Positions 6,258-49,280 of a DNA stretch of 62,402 nt are shown here, one piece after another. This DNA is from a virus. Taxonomy: Duplodnaviria; Heunggongvirae; Uroviricota; Caudoviricetes. The DNA is taken from IMG/VR virus record IMGVR_UViG_3300029219_000144; one strand, written 5' to 3'. Below the pieces are notes generated by a model. It was not told the origin of the DNA and did no database searches. It saw nothing but the letters and a program-made list of their open reading frames with translations. Position numbers and translations under genes: made by a program. The first letter of the stretch is position 1. Each line of letters begins with the position of its first letter.

Positions 6258-6506
6258 ATGAAGATGTTTGGAACAGCAAAAGAAATCATCGAGAAACTGA
6301 AAAACTATCCAGAAGACGAACCCTTACTCATGGTTATGTGGCACAAAGAAGATATTGCTGAAGTAAGGACAGATCTCACTGATGAACAATGCGTACAGGT
6401 GATGCAAAAAATCAGACAATACCATAACGCTGATGTCGGCGTTAATTGGGAGGTTATATCAACTACGGCGAATGAGTTGTTTCCGAACGGGGTGGTAAAA
6501 TGCTGA
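6258..6506 (+). CDS. hypothetical phage early protein (82 aa)
   Basis: ORF with AGGAG just upstream (second ATG at 6264 has better spacing); preceded by the operator palindrome. Confidence 0.5.
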   Translation: MKMFGTAKEIIEKLKNYPEDEPLLMVMWHKEDIAEVRTDLTDEQCVQVMQKIRQYHNADVGVNWEVISTTANELFPNGVVKC

Positions 6507-6688
6507 AACTCACCAAATTGTATAAGACGACAGTTAGTAGCCCTACCCTCGTTACACAGCATGACTCTGAGTGTCTACCAAATATCTGTTTCGAGCACCA
6601 TACGATCTCGGACTCAATTGGGTACAGAAACGGAGTATGGGGGAGTCAGGGGAGGGAAGAAAAGCTGCGTGATTACGGTGTCACATAG
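6500..6688 (+). CDS. hypothetical small protein (62 aa)
   Basis: ATG overlaps the stop of the upstream ORF (ATGCTGA), suggesting translational coupling; no motif recognised. Confidence 0.3.
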   Translation: MLKLTKLYKTTVSSPTLVTQHDSECLPNICFEHHTISDSIGYRNGVWGSQGREEKLRDYGVT

Positions 6689-37635: not shown

Positions 37636-40600
37636 TTGGACATGGAACAGTTCAAGAAGAAAAAATTACCGCTTCTTATTGCCGGTGCTGGTGGCAAGAA
37701 AAGTAAAAGCTCCAGCCGTACCCCGGTTGAAGCTGATGATACTGTCAATTCTCGTGCTATGGCAGCCATCCTCGACCTTCTTGGCGAGGGGGTTATCGGT
37801 GGCCTGGTAAATGGCGCAAAGTCGATCTTCATCGACGATTTACCGATCTTGAATGAAGATGGCTCTTCCAACTTCAGCGGTATTACATGGGATTTTCGTG
37901 ACGGCTCACAAGATCAGACGCCAATGGCTGGTTTTGATTTTGTCGAAACGCCTAAGTCCGTAAATATTCAGCTTAAAAAAACACACGACGTTACGGTTTC
38001 AATCGATAACGATGAAGCTGATCGCGTTCGTGTCATCATGAAATTCCCCTCTTTACGTAGCGTTGATAAAAGCTCTGGCGATACAAATGGCACTACGGTG
38101 AAGTACAAATTCCAGATCGCCAACGCAGACGCAACATTTTCTGATGTAGTGGCAGAAGGTGAGAAAAGCGTTGATATCACGCTAACGGCAAAGAAAACCG
38201 GCGTGTATTACCGTAGCTATGAGCTGAAACTGCCTAAGCCTGGTCGTGCATACAAGGTTAGGGTGATTCGTCTTACAGATGATAATAGTAGCCAGTACCT
38301 CTACAACGACACATGGGTTGATTCCATCGGTGAGATTGTCGACACGCCAATGAACTACCCTAACTCTGCTCTTGTTGGCTTGAAGGTCAATTCAGAGCAG
38401 TTTGGTAGCACAATGCCTTCCCGTTCGTATTTGGTGCGCGGTATCAAAATCCGAGTACCGTCAAACTACAACGAATACACCAATACTTATGTCGGCGTAT
38501 GGGACGGTACTTTTAAGCTGTTGTCTTCTTCAAACCCTGCGTGGATTCTCTACGATTTGCTTACCAATACTCGGTATGGTCTTGGGCAATTTGTGTCGGA
38601 ATCCATGATTGACCTCGGCCAGCTCTACCAGATTGGTCGATATTGTGACGAAGAGGTCGATGATGGCTTTGGGGGTAAAGAGAAACGCTTTGCAATCAAT
38701 ACGCAGATCACCAGTCGACAAGACGCATACCGATTAATTCAGGATATTGCCGGTGCATTCCGCGGCATGGTGTTTTGGGCTGGTGGCATGGTTAACATCA
38801 TGCAGGATAGCCCATCAGATCCGGTAATGATGTTTACCAACTCCAACGTCAAAGATGGACTGTTTACCTATAAAGGTTCTGCGCGTAAAGATCGCCCATC
38901 CGTTGCGCTCGTAACCTACAACAACAAGGAGGACGGTTATAAGCAAAACATCGAATACGTTGAAGATCAGGACGCAATGCGCCGTTATGGTGAGCGTAAA
39001 ACAGAAGTCGTAGCATTTGGATGTACAAGCCGAGGCCAGGCTCACCGAGTTGGTTTGTGGCTTTTGTATACCGCCAGAATGGAGTCGGATGTAATTACAT
39101 TTACTGCCGGCTTAGACGCCTCATTTCTGATGCCTGGTGAAACCGTTCTGATTCAGAACAAATATCGTGCAGGTAAACGTAACTCCGGTCGAATTGTGGA
39201 GTTTACCAAAAACAGCATCACTCTCGATGCGCCTGTGTCGTTAGCTAAAAGTGGCAGCTTTATTCGGATATTGAATCAGGAAGGCAAAATCGTTGAACGC
39301 GATGTTCTTGAAACTGGCGAAAACATAACAAAGGTTACGTTTTCAAAAGCCCTGTCGTCAGCGGAAACGCCTGTTTTGAACGGTGTCTGGACAATTACAG
39401 AACCAGATCTCGAACCTATGCGCGTTCGCATCGTTAACATCGCGCAGGGGGAAACGCCGGGTAGCTTTGACATCACCGCTGTTGAGAACAATCCGTCTAA
39501 ATATGAGGCAATCGACAATGGCGCAACGCTGATCCCGCAGAATACGACGGTATTGGACCCAACTTACTCCAAGCCATCTAATCTGCAAATCACTGAAGGG
39601 ACTTATCTCTCAAGCCCGGGCAACCTGTCAGTAAAACTGACTGCAACATGGGAAGGAAAATCTCCAGAGTATTGGATCAGTTGGCGACGTTCTGATGAAA
39701 ACAATGTATCGAACTGGCAATCGGCGCGTGTAACCGAAGAGCAATACGAAATCGTTAATGTCGCGGAGAATGGACACTACGACTTCCAACTGTATGCGGT
39801 TTCATTCAACGGTAAAAAAACAGAGATTATCAGTACCGTTTATCAGGTGTTGGGCACAATGACACCGCCGGATGCCCCAACGTCATTAACGGCCGTTGGA
39901 GACTATCGTAATGTGATACTGAATTGGGTTAATCCAGATTCGGTAGACCTTGATCACATTAATGTTTACGCATCCCAGACCAACAATCTGGATACGGCGA
40001 AACTGATCGCAGAGTCTGCAAGCACCACCTTTACACATGCTGGTCTTGGGGATAGCGAAACGTGGTATTACTGGGTTCGAGCATCGAACAAGCGAGGTAT
40101 GTTAAGCCCTCCGAACTCAAACTTGGGTACAGAGGCGACAACTCGCGATGTACTGTCGTTCCTGGCTGGCAAAATTACATCTTCCGAGCTTGGTCAGGCT
40201 CTGCTTGAGGACATCAACAGCAAAGCCTCTCAAGAAGCAGTTGACGAGTTAAATGAGCATATCAACCAGAGCGTCGAATCTTTGGAGGGGGCGGTAAACG
40301 ACGTTAAGGAAGATATAGCTGAATTAGATAAGCAGTTCAGCGATAACCTCGCGGGTTTTGAAATAAAATTCAACGAGCGTAGCGATGCTTTGGAGAACGC
40401 ACAAACCGAGCTTAAAGGTGAGGTTTCGGCAACGATCGACAAGGTCAATGAAGCGTTTGAAAAAATTGATGCTACTGATGCTGCAATTGTTGAAATCGAA
40501 AACACCGTATCTGAACACGATAAAGCTCTCGCTAATACAGTCGAGGCAATAAAGGCTGCAAGAGATGAAGCGGCGGCTCTTATTGCTAAGGAAAGCGAGG

Positions 40601-42366
40601 CTCGTGTTGAAGGCGATGCTGCAAACGCTAAACAACTGGAAGTGTTGCAGTCAACGGTAGAGGAAAGCTCCGCTGCCGTTGAAGAAATGAAAAAGACGGT
40701 TGCAGAGGTCGATCGTGCCAGTGCAGAACTGACTACGAACATTGAGGCGTTAGCCAAAACAAATATTGACCTGGCTCTTCGTCAAGATGAAGACCAGCAC
40801 AAGCAGATGGTCAATAACGCGAAGATCGCAACAACACAGAAAACCTTTGCTGATGATATGTCTGCAATGGCCACGAAGGTTGAGGAAATTCGCGTAGAAA
40901 TTGGCGAAGACATTAAGGCCAGTATTCTGGAAGAGTCCACCGCTCGTGCCGATGGCGATGAAGCGTTGGCAAAGCGTGTCACTCAGCTGCAATCTAAGTT
41001 TGAAGGAGATATCAGCGCGGCGATTAGTACAGAGCAGGAGGCTCGCACATCTGCCGATGAAGCTCTGACGACACAGATCACTCAGCTTGAGTCGAAAGTA
41101 AGCAACGATATCGTCGCAGCTATTAAGGAAGAGCAAGAAGCCCGAGCAACGGAAGATTCGGCTCTGGCAAGCCAGATCACCCAACTTCAGGCAAAGGTTG
41201 ATGATGATATTTCTGCTGCAATACGTAGTGAGCAGGAGGCCCGAGCAAGCGGGGACTCTGCGTTAGCCAAACAAATAAACCAGCTTCAGTCAAAGGTTGA
41301 CGGTGATATATCCGCTGCCATCACTCAGGAGCAGGAGGCCAGAGCAAGTGCTGACCAGGCGCTCTCACGAGAAATTAACAGCCTGCGAGCACAAACCGGA
41401 ACTGATATTGCCGCAGCGGTTGCTGTAGAGACAAAGGCAAGGACTGATGCCGATAGTGCATTGTCCACTCAGATTTCGTCTCTTACAGCAAAAGCTAATG
41501 ATCTCGAGGCATCTCTTGCCAGAGAAACAACGGCTCGTGCTGATGGTGATACCGCTTTAACAAAAGAGGTTTCAAGTTTAAAAGCACAGACAGCGAAAGA
41601 TATTAGTGCGGCCGTTGCAGTTGAAACGCAGGCTCGAACTGATGCTGACTCGGCGTTGTCGTCTCAGATCACCAAGCTGACCTCTCAATACAAAGAGGAT
41701 ATTAAAGCGGCTGTAGCAACCGAAACGAAAACGCGTACAGAGCAAGATGCTGCATTGGCGACTCAAATCACAAACTTAGAGTCTCAAACGGCAGCCAACA
41801 TTTCCGCGGCGGTAACAACTGAAACGACAGCGAGAACGCAGGCAGATAATGCTCTGAGTGGGCGAATCGATACTCTGAAAGCAGAGGTGGATGGAAATAC
41901 CGCGACAATTCAACAGCAGGCAACAGCTATTGCTGATACCAACAAAAAAGTGTCAACCGCGTGGACGTTGAAAATGGAAACTTCAACGAGCGGAGGGCAG
42001 AAGTATGTTGCTGGTATTGCGCTTGGTATCGACACCACTGGCCTTTCTCAGTTTTTGGTGCAGGCTGACAGGTTTGGTTTGGTCAACTCTGTTAACGGGA
42101 AGATCACCACGCCATTTGTTATCGAAAACAGTATCGCCTATATGAATGGTGCGTATATCAAGGATGGCACAATCACCAATGCAAAAGTAGGCGATCTGCA
42201 ATCTACCAATTTTGTTAGCGGTAGATCTGGATGGCGGTTCGGCAAAAATGGAACGCTTGAGATCAACGGTAATAGCGGGGGTAATGGGCGACTGGTCATA
42301 AATGGTCAGCGGATTGACGTTTATGACGATAACAACGTCCTACGAGTAAGAATTGGCCTTCTGTAA
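37636..42366 (+). CDS. Central tail fibre / host specificity protein J homolog (1576 aa)
   Basis: Multiple blocks match lambda J as recalled (YPNSALVGLKVNSEQFGS, FGCTSRGQAHRVGLWL, KYVAGIALG..LSQFLVQADR); contains an internal coiled-coil repeat array. Confidence 0.85.
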   Translation: MDMEQFKKKKLPLLIAGAGGKKSKSSSRTPVEADDTVNSRAMAAILDLLGEGVIGGLVNGAKSIFIDDLPILNEDGSSNFSGITWDFRDGSQDQTPMAGFDFVETPKSVNIQLKKTHDVTVSIDNDEADRVRVIMKFPSLRSVDKSSGDTNGTTVKYKFQIANADATFSDVVAEGEKSVDITLTAKKTGVYYRSYELKLPKPGRAYKVRVIRLTDDNSSQYLYNDTWVDSIGEIVDTPMNYPNSALVGLKVNSEQFGSTMPSRSYLVRGIKIRVPSNYNEYTNTYVGVWDGTFKLLSSSNPAWILYDLLTNTRYGLGQFVSESMIDLGQLYQIGRYCDEEVDDGFGGKEKRFAINTQITSRQDAYRLIQDIAGAFRGMVFWAGGMVNIMQDSPSDPVMMFTNSNVKDGLFTYKGSARKDRPSVALVTYNNKEDGYKQNIEYVEDQDAMRRYGERKTEVVAFGCTSRGQAHRVGLWLLYTARMESDVITFTAGLDASFLMPGETVLIQNKYRAGKRNSGRIVEFTKNSITLDAPVSLAKSGSFIRILNQEGKIVERDVLETGENITKVTFSKALSSAETPVLNGVWTITEPDLEPMRVRIVNIAQGETPGSFDITAVENNPSKYEAIDNGATLIPQNTTVLDPTYSKPSNLQITEGTYLSSPGNLSVKLTATWEGKSPEYWISWRRSDENNVSNWQSARVTEEQYEIVNVAENGHYDFQLYAVSFNGKKTEIISTVYQVLGTMTPPDAPTSLTAVGDYRNVILNWVNPDSVDLDHINVYASQTNNLDTAKLIAESASTTFTHAGLGDSETWYYWVRASNKRGMLSPPNSNLGTEATTRDVLSFLAGKITSSELGQALLEDINSKASQEAVDELNEHINQSVESLEGAVNDVKEDIAELDKQFSDNLAGFEIKFNERSDALENAQTELKGEVSATIDKVNEAFEKIDATDAAIVEIENTVSEHDKALANTVEAIKAARDEAAALIAKESEARVEGDAANAKQLEVLQSTVEESSAAVEEMKKTVAEVDRASAELTTNIEALAKTNIDLALRQDEDQHKQMVNNAKIATTQKTFADDMSAMATKVEEIRVEIGEDIKASILEESTARADGDEALAKRVTQLQSKFEGDISAAISTEQEARTSADEALTTQITQLESKVSNDIVAAIKEEQEARATEDSALASQITQLQAKVDDDISAAIRSEQEARASGDSALAKQINQLQSKVDGDISAAITQEQEARASADQALSREINSLRAQTGTDIAAAVAVETKARTDADSALSTQISSLTAKANDLEASLARETTARADGDTALTKEVSSLKAQTAKDISAAVAVETQARTDADSALSSQITKLTSQYKEDIKAAVATETKTRTEQDAALATQITNLESQTAANISAAVTTETTARTQADNALSGRIDTLKAEVDGNTATIQQQATAIADTNKKVSTAWTLKMETSTSGGQKYVAGIALGIDTTGLSQFLVQADRFGLVNSVNGKITTPFVIENSIAYMNGAYIKDGTITNAKVGDLQSTNFVSGRSGWRFGKNGTLEINGNSGGNGRLVINGQRIDVYDDNNVLRVRIGLL
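40930..41880 (+). repeat. In-frame tandem repeats (~90 bp, about 9 units) inside the J gene
   Basis: Repeating ~30-aa units such as DISAAI..EQEARA.ADSALA.QITQLQ.KV. Confidence 0.6.
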
Positions 42367-42414: not shown

Positions 42415-42458
42415 ATGGTGGGCAAGGATAGCCCACCAAATCAAGGAGCATATTCAAC

Positions 42459-45400
42459 ATGTGGTACAGGGAAGGTACTATCACATTTACACAGGGCAGC
42501 AATACTCTGGTTGGGGCAGGGACAGCCTGGAACGTAACAGCTAATGGTGTGTTGCCGGGGATGATCGTCATTGGCCCCGACAATAAGCTGTATGAGATCA
42601 AGCGCGTAACCAGTGATACGAACATTGTTCTCTCAGAACCTTATACCGGCGAAACTCAGTCTGAAGTTCCGTGCCGAATCATTACGACCTATGAAGGCGA
42701 CTTAACACAGTTTAGCGCGCGCTTTACAGCACTAATGTCGCGTATGTCGGCTGATTCCAAGTCCATGCGCAGTTGGTTGACTGCTCTGGATGAGGTGACA
42801 ATCGAGCGTGAAGACGGTACAGAAGTGACCGTTAAGCCGCTAATGCAGATCGTCAACGAGCACAACGAAAACGTTGAGTGGTATAAAAATAACACTGACG
42901 CGATTGATGCTGCTGGCGACAAAGCTCGTGAGGCGGCGGCCAGTGCTGCCGCAGCAGCAGAAAGCGCCAATATCGCTGGAGAAAAAGCCTCTCAAGCGTC
43001 TCAAAGTGCATCCGCTGCAGAGTCCTCAAAAAGCGCGGCGGCCACCAGTGCCGGTGCCGCGAAAACGTCTGAAACGAATGCTGCAGCGTCACAAAAATCT
43101 GCAGCCACTTCTGCATCCACCGCGACCACGAAGGCGTCAGAAGCTGCCACCTCAGCCCGGGATGCGGCGGCCTCAAAAGAGGCAGCGAAATCATCAGAAA
43201 CGAGCGCAGCCTCGAGCGCCAGTAATGCCGCTTCCTCGGCAACGGCGGCAGGAAATTCCGCGAAGGCGGCAAAAACGTCCGAGACGAACGCCAGGTCTTC
43301 TGAAACGGCAGCGGGACAGAGCGCCTCGGCTGCGGCAGGCTCAAAAACAGCGGCTGCGTCGTCTGCCAGTGCCGCGTCAACAAGTGCCGGGCAGGCCTCA
43401 GCCAGTGCCACCGCCGCCGGAAAATCGGCAGAAAGTGCCGCATCGTCTGCTTCAACAGCCACAACGAAGGCTGGCGAAGCCACTGAACAGGCCAGCGCAG
43501 CAGCGAGGTCTGCTTCCGCAGCGAAGACATCCGAAACGAACGCGAAAGCGTCGGAAACCCGTGCAGAATCCTCAAAAACGGCAGCCGCATCGTCCGCCAG
43601 TTCGGCAGCGTCATCGGCATCATCTGCGTCTGCTTCAAAAGATGAGGCGACCAGACAGGCGTCAGCAGCGAAGGGCAGCGCCACGACGGCATCCACGAAA
43701 GCAACAGAGGCGGCAGGCAGTGCGACGGCAGCATCTCAGAGCAAAACTGCTGCTGAATCCGCTGCGACCCGTGCGGAAGCTGCTGCTGATCGTGCTGAAG
43801 AGATTGCCGGTGCAGTTGCGATGGAAGACGCAAGCCTTACAACTAAAGGTGTTGTGAAACTTAGCAGTGCTGTCGACAGCACCAGTGAATCGCTGGCCGC
43901 AACGCCAAAAGCAGTTAAAGTAGTCAATGACAATGCGAACAGCAGGGTGCCATCTAACCGAAAAATTAACGGGAAAGCACTGACTGCGGATATCACATTA
44001 ACGCCGAAAGATATTGGTACTTTAAATTCAATAACGATGTCTTTCTCTGGCGGGGCCGGGTGGTTCAAACTGGCTACTGTTACAATGCCACAAGCGAGTT
44101 CCATCGTTTACATCGCATTGATTGGTGGCGCTGGTTACAACGTCGGCTCCCCACATCAGGCAGGCATTTCAGAACTGGTTCTACGAGCAGGCAATGGAAA
44201 CCCCAAAGGGATTACAGGTGCTTTGTGGAAGCGTACAGCTGTCGGATTAACGAATTTCGCCTGGATCAACACATCCGGCGATACATATGATATTTACGTT
44301 GAGATTGGCAATTATGCGACTCGTGTAAATATCCATTGGGATTGTACTGCAAATGCGACAGTTTCTATTTATACATCGCCAACATATTCAGCTAGTAAGC
44401 CTTCCAGCGTTACCGATGGTGTTGTTTATACGATGTATAGCACACATCAGAAACCGACGCCGTTAGATATTGGAGCACTGCCAACAACCGGAGGAACAGT
44501 TTCAGGTCCGTTGTCTGTTACTGGTGGGATCACCGGAACATTAAATGGTAATGCAAGTACAGCAACGAAATTGCAGACGGCAAGATCTATCGGTGGAGTT
44601 GGTTTCGACGGTTCTGCAAATATCAACCTTCCAGGTGTAAATACTACGGGTAATCAGAACACCACTGGTAATGCTGCAACTGCTACAAAACTTCAGACGG
44701 CAAGAACTATCGGCGGCGTGAGCTTTGATGGTACTGCGAATATTAATTTGCCAGGTGTTAATACGACTGGTAATCAGAATACAACGGGCAACGCGGCTAC
44801 TGCTACGAAGTTGCAGACTGCGCGTACTATCAATGGGGTGTCGTTTGACGGCTCGGCAAATATTTCCTTGTCGCCAGCAAATATAGGTTGCCCGGCATCT
44901 CCTACTGGTTGGTTAACTACAGGAAGTAATGGCGGAGCAATAACAACAGCACAGTTAGTGACGTTATTGCAAAATAATGGAGCATTTAACACAAAGTCAT
45001 GGATTGCTCGATGTGCTTGGGCCTATGCCAATAGTGCAACCATACCAAATAGTGAAACTGGTTGTGGCGTTATTCCATTGGCAGGAGCTGTTATAGAGGT
45101 ATTTAATAACGGTAGTAGCTCAAACAATTATACGATCCGTATAACAACGGCCACAACGACGAGTGTCTCTGGTGCTCTCACTAATGCGGAGTTTATCTAT
45201 GTATTTAATGGCACAGATTATTCTCCGGGATGGCGAAGAGTATATAACACGAAAAACAAACCAACAGCCTCTGATGTCGGTGCATTACCTCTTACCGGTG
45301 GTACATTATCTGGAGGTTTGACATCTTCTGGCGAGATCATTTCAAAATATGCAAATGGTTTCCGCATTGCTTACGGTAGCTTTGGGTTCTTTATCCGTAA

Positions 45401-46616
45401 TGATGGATCGAACACATATTTCATGCTAACAGCATCAGGAGACACATTAGGTTCATGGAACGGTTTGCGACCAATTACAATTAATAATACCAGCGGTGCT
45501 GTATCAATTGGTAATGGACTAAATGTGACTGGTGGCGTAAATGGTAGTTTGAACGGTAATGCTTCAACAGCTACGAAGTTGCAAACAGCGAGAAACATCA
45601 ATGGTGTTAAGTTTGATGGCTCAGGCGATATCAACATTAATACATTGGTATCTCGTGGCCGAGTTACGGCGTTAAGCGGCTCTACTCAAGGCACTGCTGG
45701 CATTCAAATGTACGAGGCGTACAACAATAGCTACCCGACCACGTATGGCAACGTATTGCACATGAAAGGTGCGAGTGCTGCTGGTGAGGGCGAGTTGCTT
45801 ATTGGCTGGAGTGGTACGAGCGGTGCACATGCGCCAGTTTTCATTCGCTCACGAAGAGATACCACAGATGCGGCATGGTCAGCGTGGGCGCAGGTATATA
45901 CTGCTAAGGATTCAATCCCTGGTGTGAATACAACCGGTAATCAGAATACTACTGGTAATGCCGCAACAGCCACAAAATTGCAGACAGCAAGGAAAATTGC
46001 TGGTGTGGCGTTTGATGGCTCTGCCGATATTACTTTGACTGCGGCTAACCTTAATGCTTATACGAAAACAGAGGTAACAAACCTTCTAAGTTCCTATGCA
46101 AGCAGATCATCACTGACAGGCTATAGTGGCAACCTGGATATTATTGCTGAAACACTGGTTGTCAAATCAGGCGGTAGTGGAGGGTTTGCTATATGGGATA
46201 TTGGCACAACTACTAGCGGTGCCAATATGTACATTGATCCAAACCCTGGTATCAATACAGTTTGGCGTTCAACATCTTCAAGGCGCTATAAAAAGGATAT
46301 TGAAACATTACAAGATCGATATGCTGATGAACTTTTGTCATTAAGACCTGTTTGGTATCGTTCAATTTGTCGAGGTGACCGAAAGGATTGGGGGTATTAC
46401 GGCCTTATTGCTGAAGAGGTTGGTGAGATTGCCCCGCAATATGTCCATTGGCGTGAACCAACAAATAATGATTCTCCAGAAGATATTTCCTCAAATGGTA
46501 TGGTCGCTGAAGGGGTGATGTATGAGCGTTTGGTTGTACCACTCATTCATCATATTCAGCAATTGACCAAAAGGGTTGAGGAGCTTGAAACGAAGTTAAA
46601 TTCACCTAAAGAATAA
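42459..46616 (+). CDS. Side tail fibre (lambda Stf-like shaft, repeat region, C-terminal intramolecular chaperone domain)
   Basis: Ala/Ser-rich region (AESSKSAAATSAGAAKTSETNAAASQ...) near-identical to lambda Stf as recalled; GNAATATKLQTAR repeats; C-terminus has S74-like chaperone motifs (YGLIAEEV..). Confidence 0.8.
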   Translation: MWYREGTITFTQGSNTLVGAGTAWNVTANGVLPGMIVIGPDNKLYEIKRVTSDTNIVLSEPYTGETQSEVPCRIITTYEGDLTQFSARFTALMSRMSADSKSMRSWLTALDEVTIEREDGTEVTVKPLMQIVNEHNENVEWYKNNTDAIDAAGDKAREAAASAAAAAESANIAGEKASQASQSASAAESSKSAAATSAGAAKTSETNAAASQKSAATSASTATTKASEAATSARDAAASKEAAKSSETSAASSASNAASSATAAGNSAKAAKTSETNARSSETAAGQSASAAAGSKTAAASSASAASTSAGQASASATAAGKSAESAASSASTATTKAGEATEQASAAARSASAAKTSETNAKASETRAESSKTAAASSASSAASSASSASASKDEATRQASAAKGSATTASTKATEAAGSATAASQSKTAAESAATRAEAAADRAEEIAGAVAMEDASLTTKGVVKLSSAVDSTSESLAATPKAVKVVNDNANSRVPSNRKINGKALTADITLTPKDIGTLNSITMSFSGGAGWFKLATVTMPQASSIVYIALIGGAGYNVGSPHQAGISELVLRAGNGNPKGITGALWKRTAVGLTNFAWINTSGDTYDIYVEIGNYATRVNIHWDCTANATVSIYTSPTYSASKPSSVTDGVVYTMYSTHQKPTPLDIGALPTTGGTVSGPLSVTGGITGTLNGNASTATKLQTARSIGGVGFDGSANINLPGVNTTGNQNTTGNAATATKLQTARTIGGVSFDGTANINLPGVNTTGNQNTTGNAATATKLQTARTINGVSFDGSANISLSPANIGCPASPTGWLTTGSNGGAITTAQLVTLLQNNGAFNTKSWIARCAWAYANSATIPNSETGCGVIPLAGAVIEVFNNGSSSNNYTIRITTATTTSVSGALTNAEFIYVFNGTDYSPGWRRVYNTKNKPTASDVGALPLTGGTLSGGLTSSGEIISKYANGFRIAYGSFGFFIRNDGSNTYFMLTASGDTLGSWNGLRPITINNTSGAVSIGNGLNVTGGVNGSLNGNASTATKLQTARNINGVKFDGSGDININTLVSRGRVTALSGSTQGTAGIQMYEAYNNSYPTTYGNVLHMKGASAAGEGELLIGWSGTSGAHAPVFIRSRRDTTDAAWSAWAQVYTAKDSIPGVNTTGNQNTTGNAATATKLQTARKIAGVAFDGSADITLTAANLNAYTKTEVTNLLSSYASRSSLTGYSGNLDIIAETLVVKSGGSGGFAIWDIGTTTSGANMYIDPNPGINTVWRSTSSRRYKKDIETLQDRYADELLSLRPVWYRSICRGDRKDWGYYGLIAEEVGEIAPQYVHWREPTNNDSPEDISSNGMVAEGVMYERLVVPLIHHIQQLTKRVEELETKLNSPKE
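44540..44880 (+). repeat. Three tandem ~120-bp in-frame repeats inside the fibre gene (further diverged copies near 45540 and 45900)
   Basis: Repeated NINLPGVNTTGNQNTTGNAATATKLQTAR.IGGV.FDG with synonymous differences. Confidence 0.6.
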
Positions 46617-46627
46617 ACAACTTCAAT

Positions 46628-46652
46628 CGGGGCTGGAACTAAACCAGCCCCT
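46628..46652 (+). terminator. Hairpin after the tail fibre gene
   Basis: GGGGCTGG aactaaa CCAGCCCC; weak U-tract. Confidence 0.45.
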
Positions 46653-46676
46653 GCTTAAAAGTATAAGGATATATTT

Positions 46677-46931
46677 ATGAGCTATGGTGCACAGGTATGG
46701 TCGCCATCAAGACAGGAGATGGTCGATGCGTTGGCCCCTGTTTATTACCTCGATTATTTTACTCCCTCTGGTTCTGGAAGTAGAACATATGAGGTTGAGG
46801 CGGGATTGGGAATCGACTATTACATAATGGACGTAACCAATGGGAAATACACAAGTCTTACGGTTTCTGGAAATACCATTTCATGGTCTGGAGCTAGTGG
46901 CAATTTAAACATATTGGTTTTTCAAAAATAA
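46677..46931 (+). CDS. hypothetical protein (84 aa)
   Basis: ORF in an AT-rich block after the fibre gene. Confidence 0.45.
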   Translation: MSYGAQVWSPSRQEMVDALAPVYYLDYFTPSGSGSRTYEVEAGLGIDYYIMDVTNGKYTSLTVSGNTISWSGASGNLNILVFQK

Positions 46932-47539
46932 TGTACGGAAGCAAGATATATCGATCTGACGGGAAGGTCTGGATGTCTCCTTCTTTGTCTCCTATCGTCT
47001 TTCAGAGAAAGCAGGTTGTTTCTTTGTCTGGCGGGACAGAGTTTAACACCCAAATATCTCCAGATCGTTCACCGATGATTTTTGTTGCCTATTCGAAAGC
47101 TGTTTCATTAATAGCCAACAGAATAGTGCGTAACAACCAGGTGATTTACAGTTTCGGAGGTCAGGGTAGCGACTCTAGTGCCACGATATACGTATTTTCG
47201 AAAGGTATAGCCAAAAAAGAAACTTGGGGCATGAGTTTTTTCAATGCACAAGGGGAGGAAATCTATAATACGGCAAATATCCCACTTTCATTTACCTTTC
47301 TTAATAATACGGAGTGGAACAGCTCTGGAGGGCATGTTTTTGATTACCCACCAGCGATAATCCCAACATATGCGAATGTGTTCGCTGTTCCAGTACCGGG
47401 CGGAGCCATGACAATGGTTTATGGATATGCGGCATATGGAAATACTGTTAGCTCGATATTCGTAAACCAACTTAATGGCGGCCATAGTTTTAGCGTAAAT
47501 GGCAGAGTACCGGTAATAAATAGAAATCTGTATAACTGA
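46931..47539 (+). CDS. hypothetical protein (202 aa)
   Basis: Start overlaps the upstream stop; AT-rich; no motif recognised. Confidence 0.45.
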   Translation: MYGSKIYRSDGKVWMSPSLSPIVFQRKQVVSLSGGTEFNTQISPDRSPMIFVAYSKAVSLIANRIVRNNQVIYSFGGQGSDSSATIYVFSKGIAKKETWGMSFFNAQGEEIYNTANIPLSFTFLNNTEWNSSGGHVFDYPPAIIPTYANVFAVPVPGGAMTMVYGYAAYGNTVSSIFVNQLNGGHSFSVNGRVPVINRNLYN

Positions 47540-47546
47540 TGAGTAA

Positions 47547-47780
47547 ATGATGAAAAGATTATTTCTAACAATAGCTGTTGTTCTCTCTCTTACTGGCTGC
47601 CAGAAATTGCCGACACCTATATGTTACGGTGAGGCTATCATTGGTGGACAGGAGACAGTCATACCCATATATGCTGTTAAAAAAGTGAACGACTATACCT
47701 TATACAAAGCGGGTAGCATCTATAACTGGCGATGGGTAGGAGTAGGTGCTTTCTCATCAGTCCGTTGCAATGTTGAATGA
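47547..47780 (+). CDS. small lipoprotein (77 aa), possible superinfection-exclusion type
   Basis: Signal peptide with lipobox LTGC (MMKRLFLTIAVVLSLTGCQ); sits between tail fibre and lysis genes. Confidence 0.5.
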   Translation: MMKRLFLTIAVVLSLTGCQKLPTPICYGEAIIGGQETVIPIYAVKKVNDYTLYKAGSIYNWRWVGVGAFSSVRCNVE

Positions 47781-48198: not shown

Positions 48199-48891
48199 AT
48201 GAAGACTCCGAGAGGCATTCGTAATAATAACCCCGGTAATCTTGATAAAGGATCACCGTGGCAAGGTCTGGTTGCGAATCCAGACGAACCGCGCTTTTGC
48301 ACGTTTAAAGACCCTGTTTGGGGGATTCGTGCGCTGGCGGTGACTCTAATTACCTACCACGACAAACGTCGCGCAAAAGACGGCTCAAGTATCGATACCA
48401 TTCGTGAAGTTATTGAACGTTGGGCACCGCCGAATGAAAACAACACTGACGCCTACATTAATGAGGTGTCTAAAGCCGTTGGTGTAACCGCAGACATGAT
48501 CATCGATCTGCATGATTACGACATCCTTCGACCTTTGGTTGAGGCAATCATTCGCCACGAGAATGGCCGAGGCCCGCTAAAAACGCTGAACACCTGGTAT
48601 GCGGCAGAAGTTATTGAGGAAGGTCTGCGTCGAGCTGGCGTTGTTAAGCCGGTGAAAACCGTGAAGGCTGTTCCTGTAACTAAAGAAACCGCAGGCGCAA
48701 CTGTTACAGCAGGTATTGGTCTGGCGCAGCTGGCCGATGTTATGCCGCAGGTTTCCGCTGCTATGGATAAAGCACAAGGTCATATCTCTAGCGGGGATAC
48801 AGTACGCATCATCTTCGGTATTGCCACTATTGTTGTGGCAGGATTCATTGCCTGGTCGCAGGTAAGAAAACACCAGAAAGGGATGGTCTAA
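48199..48891 (+). CDS. putative endolysin-like protein with a C-terminal membrane anchor (230 aa)
   Basis: Conserved-looking N-terminal GIRNNNPGNL motif, C-terminal TM IIFGIATIVVAGFIAW; located between the holin-like and spanin genes. Confidence 0.4.
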   Translation: MKTPRGIRNNNPGNLDKGSPWQGLVANPDEPRFCTFKDPVWGIRALAVTLITYHDKRRAKDGSSIDTIREVIERWAPPNENNTDAYINEVSKAVGVTADMIIDLHDYDILRPLVEAIIRHENGRGPLKTLNTWYAAEVIEEGLRRAGVVKPVKTVKAVPVTKETAGATVTAGIGLAQLADVMPQVSAAMDKAQGHISSGDTVRIIFGIATIVVAGFIAWSQVRKHQKGMV

Positions 48892-48892
48892 T

Positions 48893-49144
48893 ATGCTAGG
48901 CAGCCTGATGACAAAGCTAAAAGTTGCTTTGATTACGCTGGCTGCCGTTCTTTTCGTTCTTGTCGGCGCTTACACGATGGGCGGGAATGCGGCGCGACGA
49001 GCAATGGAAGAGAAGGCAAAACAGGAAGACAGAAAACGACTTCAAAACACAGTGAAAGTGGTGAATGAGACGAGCAGTAAAATACGTCAGAAAGATGCTT
49101 CTGCCGTTCATCGTGAGTTGTATGATAAGTGGGTGCGTCATTAA
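48893..49144 (+). CDS. i-spanin (Rz-like inner-membrane spanin)
   Basis: N-terminal TM (LKVALITLAAVLFVLVGAY) then charged periplasmic domain; o-spanin ORF embedded in another frame. Confidence 0.6.
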   Translation: MLGSLMTKLKVALITLAAVLFVLVGAYTMGGNAARRAMEEKAKQEDRKRLQNTVKVVNETSSKIRQKDASAVHRELYDKWVRH

Positions 49145-49280
49145 ACCACAAACAGCCAGCGTGTTGTTCTGCGATGGGGCTGAGCCTATCTATATCAGCA
49201 ATAATGATGTAATGACTGAAGAAACCGAACGCCAAATCCTTTTTCACAATACGATGGGAGAGAGGGTTTGTGGTTGGTGA
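49065..49280 (+). CDS. o-spanin (Rz1-like outer-membrane lipoprotein)
   Basis: Lipoprotein signal MRRAVKYVRKMLLPFIVSCMISGC with lipobox ISGC; overlaps the i-spanin 3' end out of frame. Confidence 0.55.
   Translation: MRRAVKYVRKMLLPFIVSCMISGCVIKPQTASVLFCDGAEPIYISNNDVMTEETERQILFHNTMGERVCGW

What the first reader, a model, noticed from the sequence alone, without database searches (positions are those of the whole stretch)
42459..46616. Mosaic side tail fibre: lambda Stf-like shaft joined to a repeat region and a self-chaperoning C-terminus
The Ala/Ser-rich region of this 1385-aa fibre is almost identical to lambda Stf as I recall it, but the distal half differs: five GNAATATKLQTAR-type repeats and a C-terminal domain with intramolecular-chaperone (S74-like) features, with no separate tfa-like gene downstream. 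This points to modular exchange of the receptor-binding end.
Basis: partly seen in the sequence, partly recalled or inferred. Interest (0 to 1): 0.42.

Follow-up and report, generated by a model that had tools for sequence, protein, structure and literature searches.

The report
Mosaic self-chaperoned phage-plasmid tail fibre
This is an intact, ordinary but very mosaic side tail-fibre gene of an SSU5-like phage-plasmid of E. coli: it has a lambda-type Ala/Ser shaft and a built-in, probably self-cleaving folding domain at its end, and it is already present almost unchanged in dozens of public plasmid records.

Summary
The ORF (42459-46616, +, 1385 aa), the five GNA[AS]TATKLQTAR repeats, the C-terminal S74 domain and the lack of a tfa gene are all real. 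"Almost identical to lambda Stf" is overstated. Only the Ala/Ser shaft matches lambda: 72% over 148 aa, 55% over 185 aa, about 89% over one 80-aa stretch. Lambda's N-terminal and C-terminal parts have no counterpart.

The element is not lambdoid. It is an SSU5-like phage-plasmid. The first ~170 aa are ~85% identical to the SSU5 fibre and occur only on plasmids (191 of 5426 complete E. coli genomes, no chromosomal copies). The shaft DNA occurs in lambdoid prophages of 4073 genomes.

S74 membership holds on every test available here: Pfam hit above threshold, a near-invariant S1273/K1278 dyad with the endoNF S+5 spacing, and a fold match to ICA domains. Cleavage itself is untested.

Sister plasmids carry other blocks on the same scaffold, with boundaries at the 40-aa repeats. 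Three alternative distal ends join at aa 1213: S74, a tip plus tfa, or a knob with neither. A 75-nt fossil in pLAU-OXA1, and SSU5's own S74 end, suggest S74 is ancestral at this locus.

This is a known kind of protein with textbook fibre mosaicism. Interest is low.

The parts
37741..42366 (+). Upstream gene for a J-like central tail tip protein, included as context for the fibre's position
   Evidence: Pfam Phage_Tail_Tip, Phage-tail_3 and FNIII-A_GpJ. 32% identical to lambda J by tblastn. RefSeq names it 'phage tail tip fiber protein'.
42443..42448 (+). Shine-Dalgarno sequence AAGGAG, 10 nt before the ATG at 42459
   Evidence: Read directly from the sequence.
42459..46616 (+). Complete tail-fibre ORF, 1385 codons plus stop
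   Evidence: ORF list and translation. Full-length match to PHROG 3299. One mismatch to plasmid NZ_CP027358.1. Synonymous to non-synonymous codon differences against relatives are 19:3, 35:1 and 61:22.
42459..42968 (+). N-terminal anchor module (aa 1-~170), SSU5 type; inferred to attach the fibre to the tail tip
   Evidence: About 85% identical to SSU5_021. The DNA is found in 191 E. coli genomes at 192 plasmid places and no chromosomal places. No similarity to the lambda Stf N-terminus. No Pfam family.
42983..43958 (+). Ala/Ser-rich shaft of lambdoid Stf type (aa 176-~450) plus the conserved collar motif DASLTTKGVVKLSSAVDSTSESLAATPKAVK (aa ~455-490)
   Evidence: 88-95% DNA identity to many lambdoid stf genes. 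Present in 4073 of 5426 E. coli genomes, at 6319 chromosomal places. 55-72% identical to lambda orf-401. The collar aligns with Mu S/S' structures 8ju3 and 5yvq.
43959..44528 (+). Mid-fibre domain (aa ~501-690), an independently exchanged block
   Evidence: Shared with lambdoid phage phi458 at 95% DNA identity. Replaced in pMTY18530-3 and p009_B, where identity is 12-25%. PHROG 21552; no Pfam family.
44547..44906 (+). Repeats 1-3: three tandem 40-aa units (aa 697-816), GNA[AS]TATKLQTAR-x-I-x-GV-x-FDG-x-ANI-x-L(PGVNTTGNQNTT)
   Evidence: Regex positions. TRF period 120, 2.2-2.5 copies, 75% DNA match. Block boundaries of relatives fall here.
44907..45248 (+). Knob domain (aa ~817-930) homologous to a domain of the Mu S' fibre
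   Evidence: phmmer against PDB: 8ju3_A residues 186-334 align to aa 790-950 (E 1.2e-27 for that stretch). Deleted in p009_B.
45249..45554 (+). Domain of the T4 gp34 C-terminal trimerisation / Mu S type (aa ~931-1032)
   Evidence: Pfam Gp34_trimer at aa 907-1008, E 5.9e-29. PDB matches 5yvq, 4uxe and 5nxf.
45555..45638 (+). Repeat 4 (aa 1033-1060)
   Evidence: Collinearity with Cyrano ends at window 45640.
45639..45914 (+). Block (aa ~1061-1152) related to the proximal part of P1/P7 Sv' fibre segments
   Evidence: tblastn gives 74-78% identity to P1 Sv', P7 S and D6. The match covers Sv' codons ~64-203 of 519, so not the Sv' tip. Replaced in Cyrano, where identity is 15-42%.
45915..46097 (+). 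Repeat 5 plus linker ...LTAANLNAYTKTEVTNLLSSY (aa 1153-1213), the common left junction of all alternative distal ends
   Evidence: Homology with Cyrano, pMTY18530-3, DG341-1 p4 and p009_B ends at window 46098.
46098..46274 (+). Distal tip (aa 1214-1272, 59 residues), which would be the C-terminus of the mature fibre after cleavage
   Evidence: It lies between the junction and the S74 start. T1250, T1251, A1255 and N1256 are >=90% conserved, and R1270 and S1271 nearly invariant, among homologues (for R1270 and S1271). Low pLDDT in the monomer model.
46275..46613 (+). Peptidase_S74 / intramolecular chaperone domain (aa 1273-1385, 113 residues) with putative dyad S1273 and K1278; predicted cleavage between T1272 and S1273
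   Evidence: Pfam PF13884 at aa 1273-1329. S1273 in 114/120 and K1278 in 117/119 homologues. Invariant columns in A1. AF2 pLDDT >90 for this part. The 11 best Foldseek hits are all ICA domains: 7dc3, 3gud, 3gw6. Same S+5 spacing as endoNF S911/K916.
46542..46616 (+). Last 24 codons plus stop of the fibre ORF; the same 75 nt survive as non-coding DNA behind tfa in sister plasmid pLAU-OXA1
   Evidence: blastn and direct inspection.
46629..46656 (+). Terminator-like hairpin GGGGCTGG-N7-CCAGCCCC followed by TGCTT
   Evidence: Read from the sequence. Conserved in pLAU-OXA1.
46677..47780 (+). Conserved downstream trio: an 84-aa protein, a 188/202-aa membrane-associated protein and the Cor exclusion lipoprotein. 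None is a fibre chaperone.
   Evidence: PHROG 557, 425 and 1119; no Caudo_TAP match. 59-74% identical to SSU5_023, SSU5_024 and SSU5_025. RefSeq annotation.

Best explanation
The ORF encodes the lateral (side) tail fibre of an SSU5-like siphovirus that is maintained as a ~110-kb plasmid in E. coli.

Proposed working order (steps 1-4 are inferred from homology; only the sequence features are shown):
1. Three chains associate. The C-terminal 113-residue S74 domain, with its long terminal helix, nucleates trimerisation and folding of the fibre from the distal end.
2. Once the tip is folded, S1273 activated by K1278 cuts the chain between T1272 and S1273. This releases the ~13-kDa chaperone, so no separate tfa gene is needed.
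3. The SSU5-type N-terminal ~170 residues dock the fibre on the tail tip built by the upstream J-like protein.
4. The Ala/Ser shaft and the string of knobs hold out the distal part, which makes a first, reversible contact with a surface glycan or protein of the host.

The gene is a patchwork. It combines an SSU5-type anchor, a shaft and mid domain shared at 88-95% DNA identity with lambdoid prophages, Mu S'-, T4 gp34- and P1 Sv'-like blocks, and a tip+S74 cassette. The conserved 40-aa GNAATATKLQTAR units sit at the block boundaries and most likely serve as homologous-recombination linkers.
For: Identity and context:
- The gene lies after tape measure, M, L, K(C40), I and J-like genes and before SSU5_023/024/cor homologues.
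- The anchor is ~85% identical to SSU5 gp21 and is plasmid-only in E. coli.
- The closest phages are Cyrano, CMS-2020a and SSU5, all ~103-109 kb.

Intact and functional:
- Open 1385-codon frame with an SD sequence.
- 81 PLSDB plasmids and 78 complete E. coli genomes hold at least 80% of the gene.
- Synonymous to non-synonymous differences are 19:3, 35:1 and 61:22.

S74 domain:
- Pfam hit above the gathering score.
- Motif R-S-T-S-S-x-R-Y-K-x-D-V-E is near-invariant in 120 homologues.
- The model is confident in the domain, and the 11 best PDB fold hits are all ICA/CIMCD structures.
- Ser-to-Lys spacing of five matches endoNF S911/K916 and MyRF S587/K592, both shown by mutagenesis to be essential (PMC8326128).
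- The motif aligns to the same motif in a T5-like L-shaped fibre, 8hqz.

No trans chaperone.

Mosaicism and junctions at the repeats.
Against: - No experiment shows cleavage, assembly, or even that this plasmid makes virions. One E. coli SSU5-like element tested by others was not inducible (PMC9600943).
- The Pfam score is modest (27.2 bits), and direct sequence matches to solved S74 proteins are weak (E 0.021; none to T5 pb1 in BLASTP).
- The tip is modelled with low confidence.
- RefSeq marks the identical gene as an N-terminally incomplete pseudogene.
- In SSU5 itself the receptor is reported to be bound by the separate gp22 adhesin (cited in PMC12312913). That gene is absent here, so which part of this fibre binds a receptor is unknown.
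Confidence: 0.8

Rival explanations
1. The gene is a decaying pseudogene on a defective phage-plasmid, as the RefSeq annotation of the identical sequence implies, and makes no functional fibre.
For: - RefSeq marks NZ_CP027358.1 as 'incomplete; missing N-terminus'.
- Many records annotate the gene in fragments.
- Orthologues in some plasmids are interrupted by IS2 or IS66 elements.
- Some SSU5-like E. coli elements are not inducible.
Against: - The 4158-nt frame is open from an ATG with a good SD.
- The 'missing' N-terminus is present and ~85% identical to the SSU5 fibre.
- There is a strong excess of synonymous changes against three relatives.
- The full-length gene is annotated as one CDS in other records.
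- The pseudogene flag most likely comes from protein-evidence alignment across a mosaic gene.
Confidence: 0.05
2. The S74-like domain is retained rather than cleaved (a non-catalytic trimerisation or cap domain), or is cleaved at another of the conserved serines (S1271 or S1274).
For: - S1271, S1273 and S1274 are all nearly invariant, so the nucleophile cannot be fixed from sequence alone.
- The Pfam score is modest.
- In MyRF the ICA domain stays attached to the membrane part after cleavage, which shows functional variety in the family.
Against: - Only S1273 has the five-residue spacing to the invariant K1278 seen in endoNF and MyRF, and it is where the Pfam profile starts.
- Both dyad residues are conserved in 95-98% of homologues, which a purely structural domain would not require.
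Confidence: 0.1
3. It is a lambda-family Stf whose receptor-binding end was recently replaced by an incoming S74 cassette.
For: - Shaft similarity to lambda and other lambdoid Stf proteins.
- The gene lies downstream of a J-like gene.
- Lambdoid phage PhiR49_1 carries a related tip+S74 unit as a separate 234-aa ORF.
Against: - The N-terminal anchor is SSU5-type, with no similarity to lambda Stf 1-200.
- The anchor and this tip occur only on plasmids.
- SSU5's own fibre ends in S74.
- pLAU-OXA1 keeps a non-coding fossil of the S74 3' end behind its tfa, so the S74-to-tfa direction is the one documented.
Confidence: 0.05

Closest known systems
Salmonella phage SSU5 fibre gp21 (SSU5_021), with its adhesin gp22
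   Same: - Same genome type and synteny: J-like gene, then fibre, then an 84-aa gene, a 188-aa gene and cor.
- The N-terminal ~175 residues are ~85% identical.
- Both have an Ala/Ser shaft.
- Both end in a Peptidase_S74 motif.
   Different: - Beyond the anchor the proteins are only ~36% identical in patches.
- SSU5 has one GNA..TATKLQTAR unit; this fibre has five.
- SSU5 has the extra 178-aa gp22, reported to bind LPS core (cited in PMC12312913). No homologue of it exists in the window.
Phage T5 L-shaped tail fibre pb1 (Ltf), and the T5-like LtfA in PDB 8hqz
   Same: - Same architecture: a ~1400-aa siphovirus side fibre with an N-terminal anchor, a 'KTSETNA' Ala/Ser region, a multi-domain shaft and a C-terminal S74 chaperone, with no tfa.
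- The S-x4-K motif aligns with 8hqz.
- From my own knowledge: pb1 is auto-cleaved and its tip binds polymannose O-antigen.
   Different: - Detectable sequence similarity is limited to the low-complexity shaft (40-52%) and a weak S74 match (E 0.021).
- The anchor, knobs and tip are different.
Lambda Stf with Tfa
   Same: - Position downstream of J.
- Ala/Ser shaft and collar motif at 55-72% identity.
- The shaft DNA circulates among lambdoid prophages.
   Different: - No similarity to the lambda Stf N-terminus or to its C-terminal half (orf-314).
- No lom and no tfa.
- Folding relies on a cis S74 domain instead of Tfa.
Endosialidase endoNF C-terminal intramolecular chaperone domain (Peptidase S74), GA-1 gp12 and MyRF ICA
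   Same: - Pfam family.
- Fold (Foldseek hits 7dc3, 3gud, 3gw6).
- Ser/Lys dyad with the same spacing.
- C-terminal position and a long terminal helix.
   Different: - 12-21% sequence identity in the structural alignments.
- The cargo here is a long fibre rather than a tailspike enzyme.
- Cleavage has not been shown.
Mu and P1 fibres S/S' with chaperones U/U', and T4 gp34
   Same: Internal blocks are homologous: the collar, a Mu S' knob (8ju3), the Mu S / gp34 trimerisation domain (5yvq, 4uxe; Pfam Gp34_trimer) and the proximal part of P1 Sv'.
   Different: - Those fibres belong to myoviruses.
- Their tips are switched by DNA inversion and folded by separate U/U' chaperones.
- Here the blocks are internal, and neither an invertase nor a U-like gene lies next to the fibre gene.

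Membership tests
Peptidase S74 / C-terminal intramolecular chaperone domain (CIMCD, ICA) | Significant match to the family profile (PF13884) above the curated threshold | tested here: met
   27.2 bits against a cut-off of 22, covering aa 1273-1329 and profile positions 1-57 of 58. Most homologues of the C-terminus also carry PF13884.
Peptidase S74 / C-terminal intramolecular chaperone domain (CIMCD, ICA) | Catalytic Ser-Lys dyad with Ser+5 spacing at the start of the domain | tested here: met
   S1273 and K1278 are present. They are conserved in 114/120 and 117/119 homologues and invariant in A1. The spacing equals that of endoNF S911/K916 and MyRF S587/K592.
Peptidase S74 / C-terminal intramolecular chaperone domain (CIMCD, ICA) | ICA fold ending in a long C-terminal helix that forms the trimeric coiled coil | tested here: met
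   AF2 pLDDT 87-97 over the domain, with a helix at model residues 156-182. Foldseek hits 1-11 are all ICA structures; the best is 7dc3 at E 4e-5, probability 1.0. Only a monomer was modelled.
Peptidase S74 / C-terminal intramolecular chaperone domain (CIMCD, ICA) | Autoproteolytic release of the domain after trimer folding | not testable with these tools
   Needs protein expression of wild type against S1273A and K1278A, or mass spectrometry of virions.
Lambda Stf family (Stf plus Tfa) | Stf-type N-terminal domain | tested here: not met
   No similarity to lambda orf-401 residues 1-200. The N-terminus is SSU5-type.
Lambda Stf family (Stf plus Tfa) | Ala/Ser-rich shaft and collar motif | tested here: met
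   55-72% identity to lambda. 88-95% DNA identity to other lambdoid stf genes.
Lambda Stf family (Stf plus Tfa) | Stf-type C-terminal receptor-binding region followed by a tfa chaperone gene | tested here: not met
   No similarity to orf-314. No Tfa homologue in the window. No Caudo_TAP family in the downstream ORFs.
SSU5-like phage-plasmid side fibre (orthologue of SSU5_021) | Shared N-terminal anchor | tested here: met
   About 85% identity over aa 1-175. DNA 75-78% identical to SSU5. The anchor is on plasmids only in E. coli.
SSU5-like phage-plasmid side fibre (orthologue of SSU5_021) | Conserved gene order around the fibre | tested here: met
   L, K(C40), I, J-like, fibre, 84-aa, 188-aa, cor, holin, endolysin in both genomes. 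The window lacks the SSU5_022 adhesin.
T5 pb1-type L-shaped tail fibre | Sequence homology along the fibre, not only shared architecture | tested here: not met
   Only the low-complexity shaft aligns (40-52%). BLASTP gives no match in the knobs, tip or S74 region. The fibre works like pb1 but is not an orthologue.

The most novel reading that the evidence does not exclude
E. coli SSU5-like phage-plasmids may run a cassette system on one fibre scaffold.
- At a single fixed junction (aa 1213, right after the last 40-aa repeat) the same fibre carries one of at least three distal ends. Each end solves trimer folding differently: a cis S74 chaperone (this window), a trans Tfa (pLAU-OXA1), or a Mu-S'-like knob with no recognisable chaperone (Cyrano, p009_B).
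- A 75-nt fossil shows that S74 was replaced by the tfa-type end.
- The 59-residue mature tip is partly conserved among distant homologues. Host specificity of the S74 variant may therefore lie in the exchangeable internal knobs rather than at the very end. In that case the S74 cassette would act as a generic, portable 'fibre terminator' that frees upstream modules from needing their own chaperones.
Probability: 0.3. Interest if true: 0.35.

Novelty: new member of a known kind. Interest (0 to 1): 0.18.

Why it matters
The practical value is modest.
- Annotation: the gene is wrongly flagged as a truncated pseudogene in RefSeq, and the report gives a residue-level domain map with a predicted cleavage site.
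- Gene flow: fibre shaft DNA moves between chromosomal lambdoid prophages and a plasmid-borne phage family that is common in clinical E. coli (191 of 5426 complete genomes).
- Engineering: the natural splice points (the 40-aa repeats and the aa-1213 junction) could guide host-range engineering of phage-plasmids or fibre chimeras. S74 ends are attractive for this because they need no partner chaperone.

None of this overturns current understanding. Tail-fibre mosaicism and S74 chaperones are well established.

Tried and rejected
- Searching the large protein database with the N-terminal anchor, to survey C-terminal end types, returned only short or partial gene calls (113-287 aa). It could not give that survey. 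I sampled six loci by hand instead.
- Pfam at E up to 10 found no family for the 40-aa repeat unit, the anchor, the mid domain or the Sv'-like block, and NCBIfam found none for the whole protein. Those blocks are defined only by PHROGs and pairwise homology.
- A sequence search of the PDB with the C-terminus gave only one weak hit (8hqz, E 0.021). The fold search was needed to confirm the domain.
- BLASTP against T5 pb1 did not detect the S74 region.
- I considered a Mu/P1-type invertible tip because of the S'/Sv' homology. I rejected it: the homologous blocks are internal, and the RefSeq annotation of the 12 kb on each side of the gene lists no invertase or U/U' gene.
- No near-identical outside donor of the tip+S74 cassette was found. 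The best non-plasmid relatives are 49-69% identical.
- The primary paper on the SSU5 receptor (PMC3911222) is not held. No paper describing phage Cyrano was found.
- Mismatches between the window and NZ_CP027358.1 looked as if they might spare only the fibre gene. In fact they cluster in the J gene and beyond 48.5 kb, and the whole 41.5-48.5 kb stretch is near-identical. That is not evidence for fibre-specific transfer.

Full report

Window 42459-46616 (+) is a single ORF of 1385 codons. An AAGGAG Shine-Dalgarno lies 10 nt before the ATG, and a GC-rich hairpin (46629-46651) follows the stop. Residues ~150-450 are 68-78% Ala+Ser+Thr. The motif GNA[AS]TATKLQTAR occurs exactly five times, at aa 697, 737, 777, 1033 and 1166. 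The first three are 40-aa units in tandem, a 120-nt array with 75% DNA match.

Pfam finds Gp34_trimer (aa 907-1008, E 5.9e-29) and Peptidase_S74 (aa 1273-1329, 27.2 bits against a cut-off of 22). No tfa-like gene follows. The next ORFs are an 84-aa protein (PHROG 557), a 202-aa membrane-associated protein (PHROG 425), Cor, a holin-like protein and an endolysin. None matches a tail-fibre assembly family. tblastn of lambda Tfa against the whole window finds nothing (best E 0.82).

The one part that fails as worded is 'almost identical to lambda Stf'. Against lambda orf-401 the best segments are 72% over 148 aa and 55% over 185 aa, with ~89% over a single 80-aa stretch. Lambda Stf 1-200 and the entire C-terminal half (orf-314) have no counterpart.

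**2. What element is this?**

The gene differs by one base from a gene on the circular 110-kb E. coli plasmid NZ_CP027358.1. 81 PLSDB plasmids and 78 complete E. coli genomes hold at least 80% of it. A PHROG (3299) matches it end to end. The closest phage records are Escherichia phages Cyrano and CMS-2020a (~108 kb) and Salmonella phage SSU5 (103 kb).

The neighbourhood is a lambda-style siphovirus tail module: tape measure, M-like, L, a C40 peptidase (K), I, and a 1541-aa J-like tip protein. The fibre follows, then the 84-aa, 188-aa and cor genes, a lysis cassette, and plasmid-type partition and replication genes. SSU5 has the same order. The window is therefore part of an SSU5-like phage-plasmid, a group known to be abundant in Enterobacteria (PMC9600943), and not a lambdoid phage.

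**3. Anatomy of the protein**

| Residues | Block | Evidence |
|---|---|---|
| 1-~170 | SSU5-type anchor, ~85% identical to SSU5 gp21 |; DNA found in 191 of 5426 complete E. coli genomes, at 192 plasmid places and no chromosomal places |
| 176-~500 | Ala/Ser shaft and collar motif | 88-95% DNA identity to many lambdoid stf genes; present in 4073 genomes at 6319 chromosomal places; collar aligns with Mu S/S' structures |
| ~501-690 | Mid domain | shared at 95% DNA identity with lambdoid phage phi458 |
| 697-816 | Repeats 1-3 | |
| ~817-930 | Knob homologous to Mu S' (8ju3) | |
| ~931-1032 | T4 gp34 / Mu S trimerisation-type domain | |
| 1033-1060 | Repeat 4 | |
| ~1061-1152 | Block 74-78% identical to the proximal part of P1/P7 Sv' | |
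| 1153-1213 | Repeat 5 plus linker | |
| 1214-1272 | 59-residue tip | |
| 1273-1385 | S74 domain | |

**4. The S74 domain**

In 120 homologues of the last 186 residues, the motif R-S-T-S-S-x-R-Y-K-x-D-V-E is almost invariant. S1273 is kept in 114 of 120 and K1278 in 117 of 119. T1272, S1273, S1274, Y1277, K1278 and E1282 are invariant in a 65-sequence alignment.

An AlphaFold2 model built on that alignment is confident for the domain (pLDDT 87-97) and ends in a 27-residue helix. The 11 best Foldseek hits in the PDB are all intramolecular-chaperone domains: MyRF 7dc3 (E 4e-5), GA-1 gp12 3gud and endoNF 3gw6.

In endoNF and MyRF, the Ser and the Lys five residues downstream (S911/K916 and S587/K592) form the dyad that is indispensable for self-cleavage (PMC8326128). 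S1273 and K1278 have the same spacing and sit at profile position 1 of PF13884. They also align with the equivalent motif of a T5-like L-shaped fibre (8hqz).

Every membership criterion that can be tested in silico is met. Cleavage between T1272 and S1273, releasing a 113-residue fragment, is an inference.

**5. Is the gene alive?**

RefSeq flags the near-identical gene (one base different) as 'incomplete, missing N-terminus', and many records split it. However, the frame is open and the N-terminus is the conserved SSU5 anchor. Codon differences against relatives are overwhelmingly synonymous: 19:3 and 35:1 against pMTY18530-3, and 61:22 against Cyrano. The pseudogene flag looks like an annotation artefact of a mosaic gene. 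Some orthologues are genuinely broken by IS2 or IS66.

**6. Modular exchange, tested directly**

Sliding identity against five relatives shows that each differs in a different block:
- Cyrano differs at aa 1041-1160 and in the tip.
- pMTY18530-3 differs at aa 481-700 and in the tip.
- p009_B has a diverged shaft, a different mid domain, a deletion of aa ~801-1000 and a different tip.
- pLAU-OXA1 is closely similar (about 80% or more) only at aa 1-280, 521-640 and 761-800.

The boundaries (~170, ~490, ~695, ~800, ~1040, ~1160 and 1213) coincide with the 40-aa repeats. This fits the long-standing idea that conserved fibre motifs act as recombination linkers (my own knowledge: Haggard-Ljungquist 1992; Tetart 1998, the latter cited in PMC10879196).

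All alternative distal ends join at window 46098, after ...YTKTEVTNLLSSY. There are three types:
- The S74 type seen here. The tip+S74 DNA matches plasmids of 59 genomes: near full length (at least 80% of the 517-nt query) in 48, and in the other 11 only in part — in the three such records listed, only the 75-nt relic.
- A Mu-S'-like knob with neither S74 nor tfa (Cyrano, pMTY18530-3, DG341-1 p4, p009_B).
- A Stf/Mu-S-like tip followed by a 175-aa tail fibre assembly protein (pLAU-OXA1).

In pLAU-OXA1, tfa and its own terminator are followed by the last 24 codons of the S74 ORF (...IHHIQQLTKRVEELETKLNSPKE*) as non-coding DNA, and then by the shared terminator and 84-aa gene. SSU5's fibre also ends in S74 (SDRRSKRNI).

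**7. What remains unknown**

Which part binds the receptor is not shown. In SSU5 the separate gp22 is reported as the LPS-core-binding protein (cited in PMC12312913), and it has no homologue here. The mature tip would be only 59 residues and is partly conserved among distant homologues. The same tip+S74 unit exists as stand-alone 231-234-aa ORFs in a lambdoid phage and in T1-like phages. Specificity may therefore lie in the internal knobs.

**8. Comparison with known systems and verdict**

Functionally the closest analogue is T5 pb1. It has the same architecture and the same cis-chaperone logic, but no detectable homology outside the low-complexity shaft. By descent the protein is an orthologue of SSU5 gp21. 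It is not a member of the lambda Stf/Tfa family, because two of that family's three defining features fail.

Mosaic fibres, S74 chaperones and gene flow between phage-plasmids and phages (PMC10879196) are all established. The gene itself is already in public records under generic names. I rate it a new, uncharacterised member of a known kind, with low interest. The useful by-products are a corrected annotation, a domain map, a predicted cleavage site and defined natural splice points.

Noticed in passing
window 42924-46616 (= NZ_CP027358.1 89482-93174): RefSeq/PGAP annotates this gene, which differs by one base, as a pseudogene 'incomplete; missing N-terminus'. The ORF is in fact open from 42459 and the N-terminus is the conserved SSU5-type anchor. 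Many other records split the gene into 'phage tail protein, partial' and 'tail fiber domain-containing protein' pieces.
   Followed up: yes
window 46677-47780: A conserved trio lies between the fibre and the lysis genes: an 84-aa protein (PHROG 557), a 188/202-aa membrane-associated protein (PHROG 425) and the Cor exclusion lipoprotein. The trio is shared with SSU5 (59-74% identity) but deleted in the Cyrano-type elements, where the holin follows the fibre directly. In other phages Cor blocks FhuA, which hints that the J-like tip protein may use FhuA. That was not tested.
   Followed up: partly
L006 (pLAU-OXA1, NZ_CP045278.1) 6501-6575, equivalent to window 46542-46616: A 75-nt non-coding fossil of the S74 ORF's 3' end lies behind the tfa gene and its terminator in a sister plasmid. 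In one search, 11 of the 59 matching E. coli genomes cover less than 80% of the tip probe; the three such records listed match only this 75-nt relic.
   Followed up: yes
window 44547-44906: The three tandem 40-aa repeat units are about 90% identical as protein (4 differences in 40 between units 1 and 2) but only about 75% identical as DNA. The units have therefore diverged mostly at synonymous sites. This could reflect an old duplication under protein constraint, or selection against slippage and recombination between units.
   Followed up: no
L007 (phage PhiR49_1) 4854-5558; proteins P0026, P0033, P0036: Homologues of the last ~186 residues (tip + S74) exist as stand-alone 231-234-aa ORFs downstream of stf in a lambdoid phage and in T1-like (Drexlerviridae) phages. 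There they are named 'putative lateral tail fiber chaperone' or 'chaperone of endosialidase'. What their ~115-residue mature product does is unclear.
   Followed up: no
plasmids CP025870, CP025894, CP025868, CP025883 and CP091407: Orthologues of this fibre gene are interrupted by IS2 in four ~100-kb plasmids and by an IS66-family element in one. These look like defective derivatives of the phage-plasmid.
   Followed up: no
L003, L011, L012, L013 (Cyrano, p009_B, pMTY18530-3, DG341-1 plasmid 4): fibre C-termini: The commonest sampled alternative end is a ~120-residue knob (…TIRLTTSHKADYGG…GATSN) related to the internal Mu-S'-like knob of the window fibre. It has no S74 domain and no tfa gene nearby. 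How this end trimerises without a recognisable chaperone is unexplained.
   Followed up: partly
window 41000-41500 and 48500-49272, compared with L001: The window is not the NZ_CP027358.1 plasmid itself. The 41.5-48.5 kb stretch differs by only 3 bases, but mismatches cluster in the J gene (20 in 500 nt) and beyond 48.5 kb (75 in ~770 nt). This suggests patchy recombination along the backbone too.
   Followed up: partly
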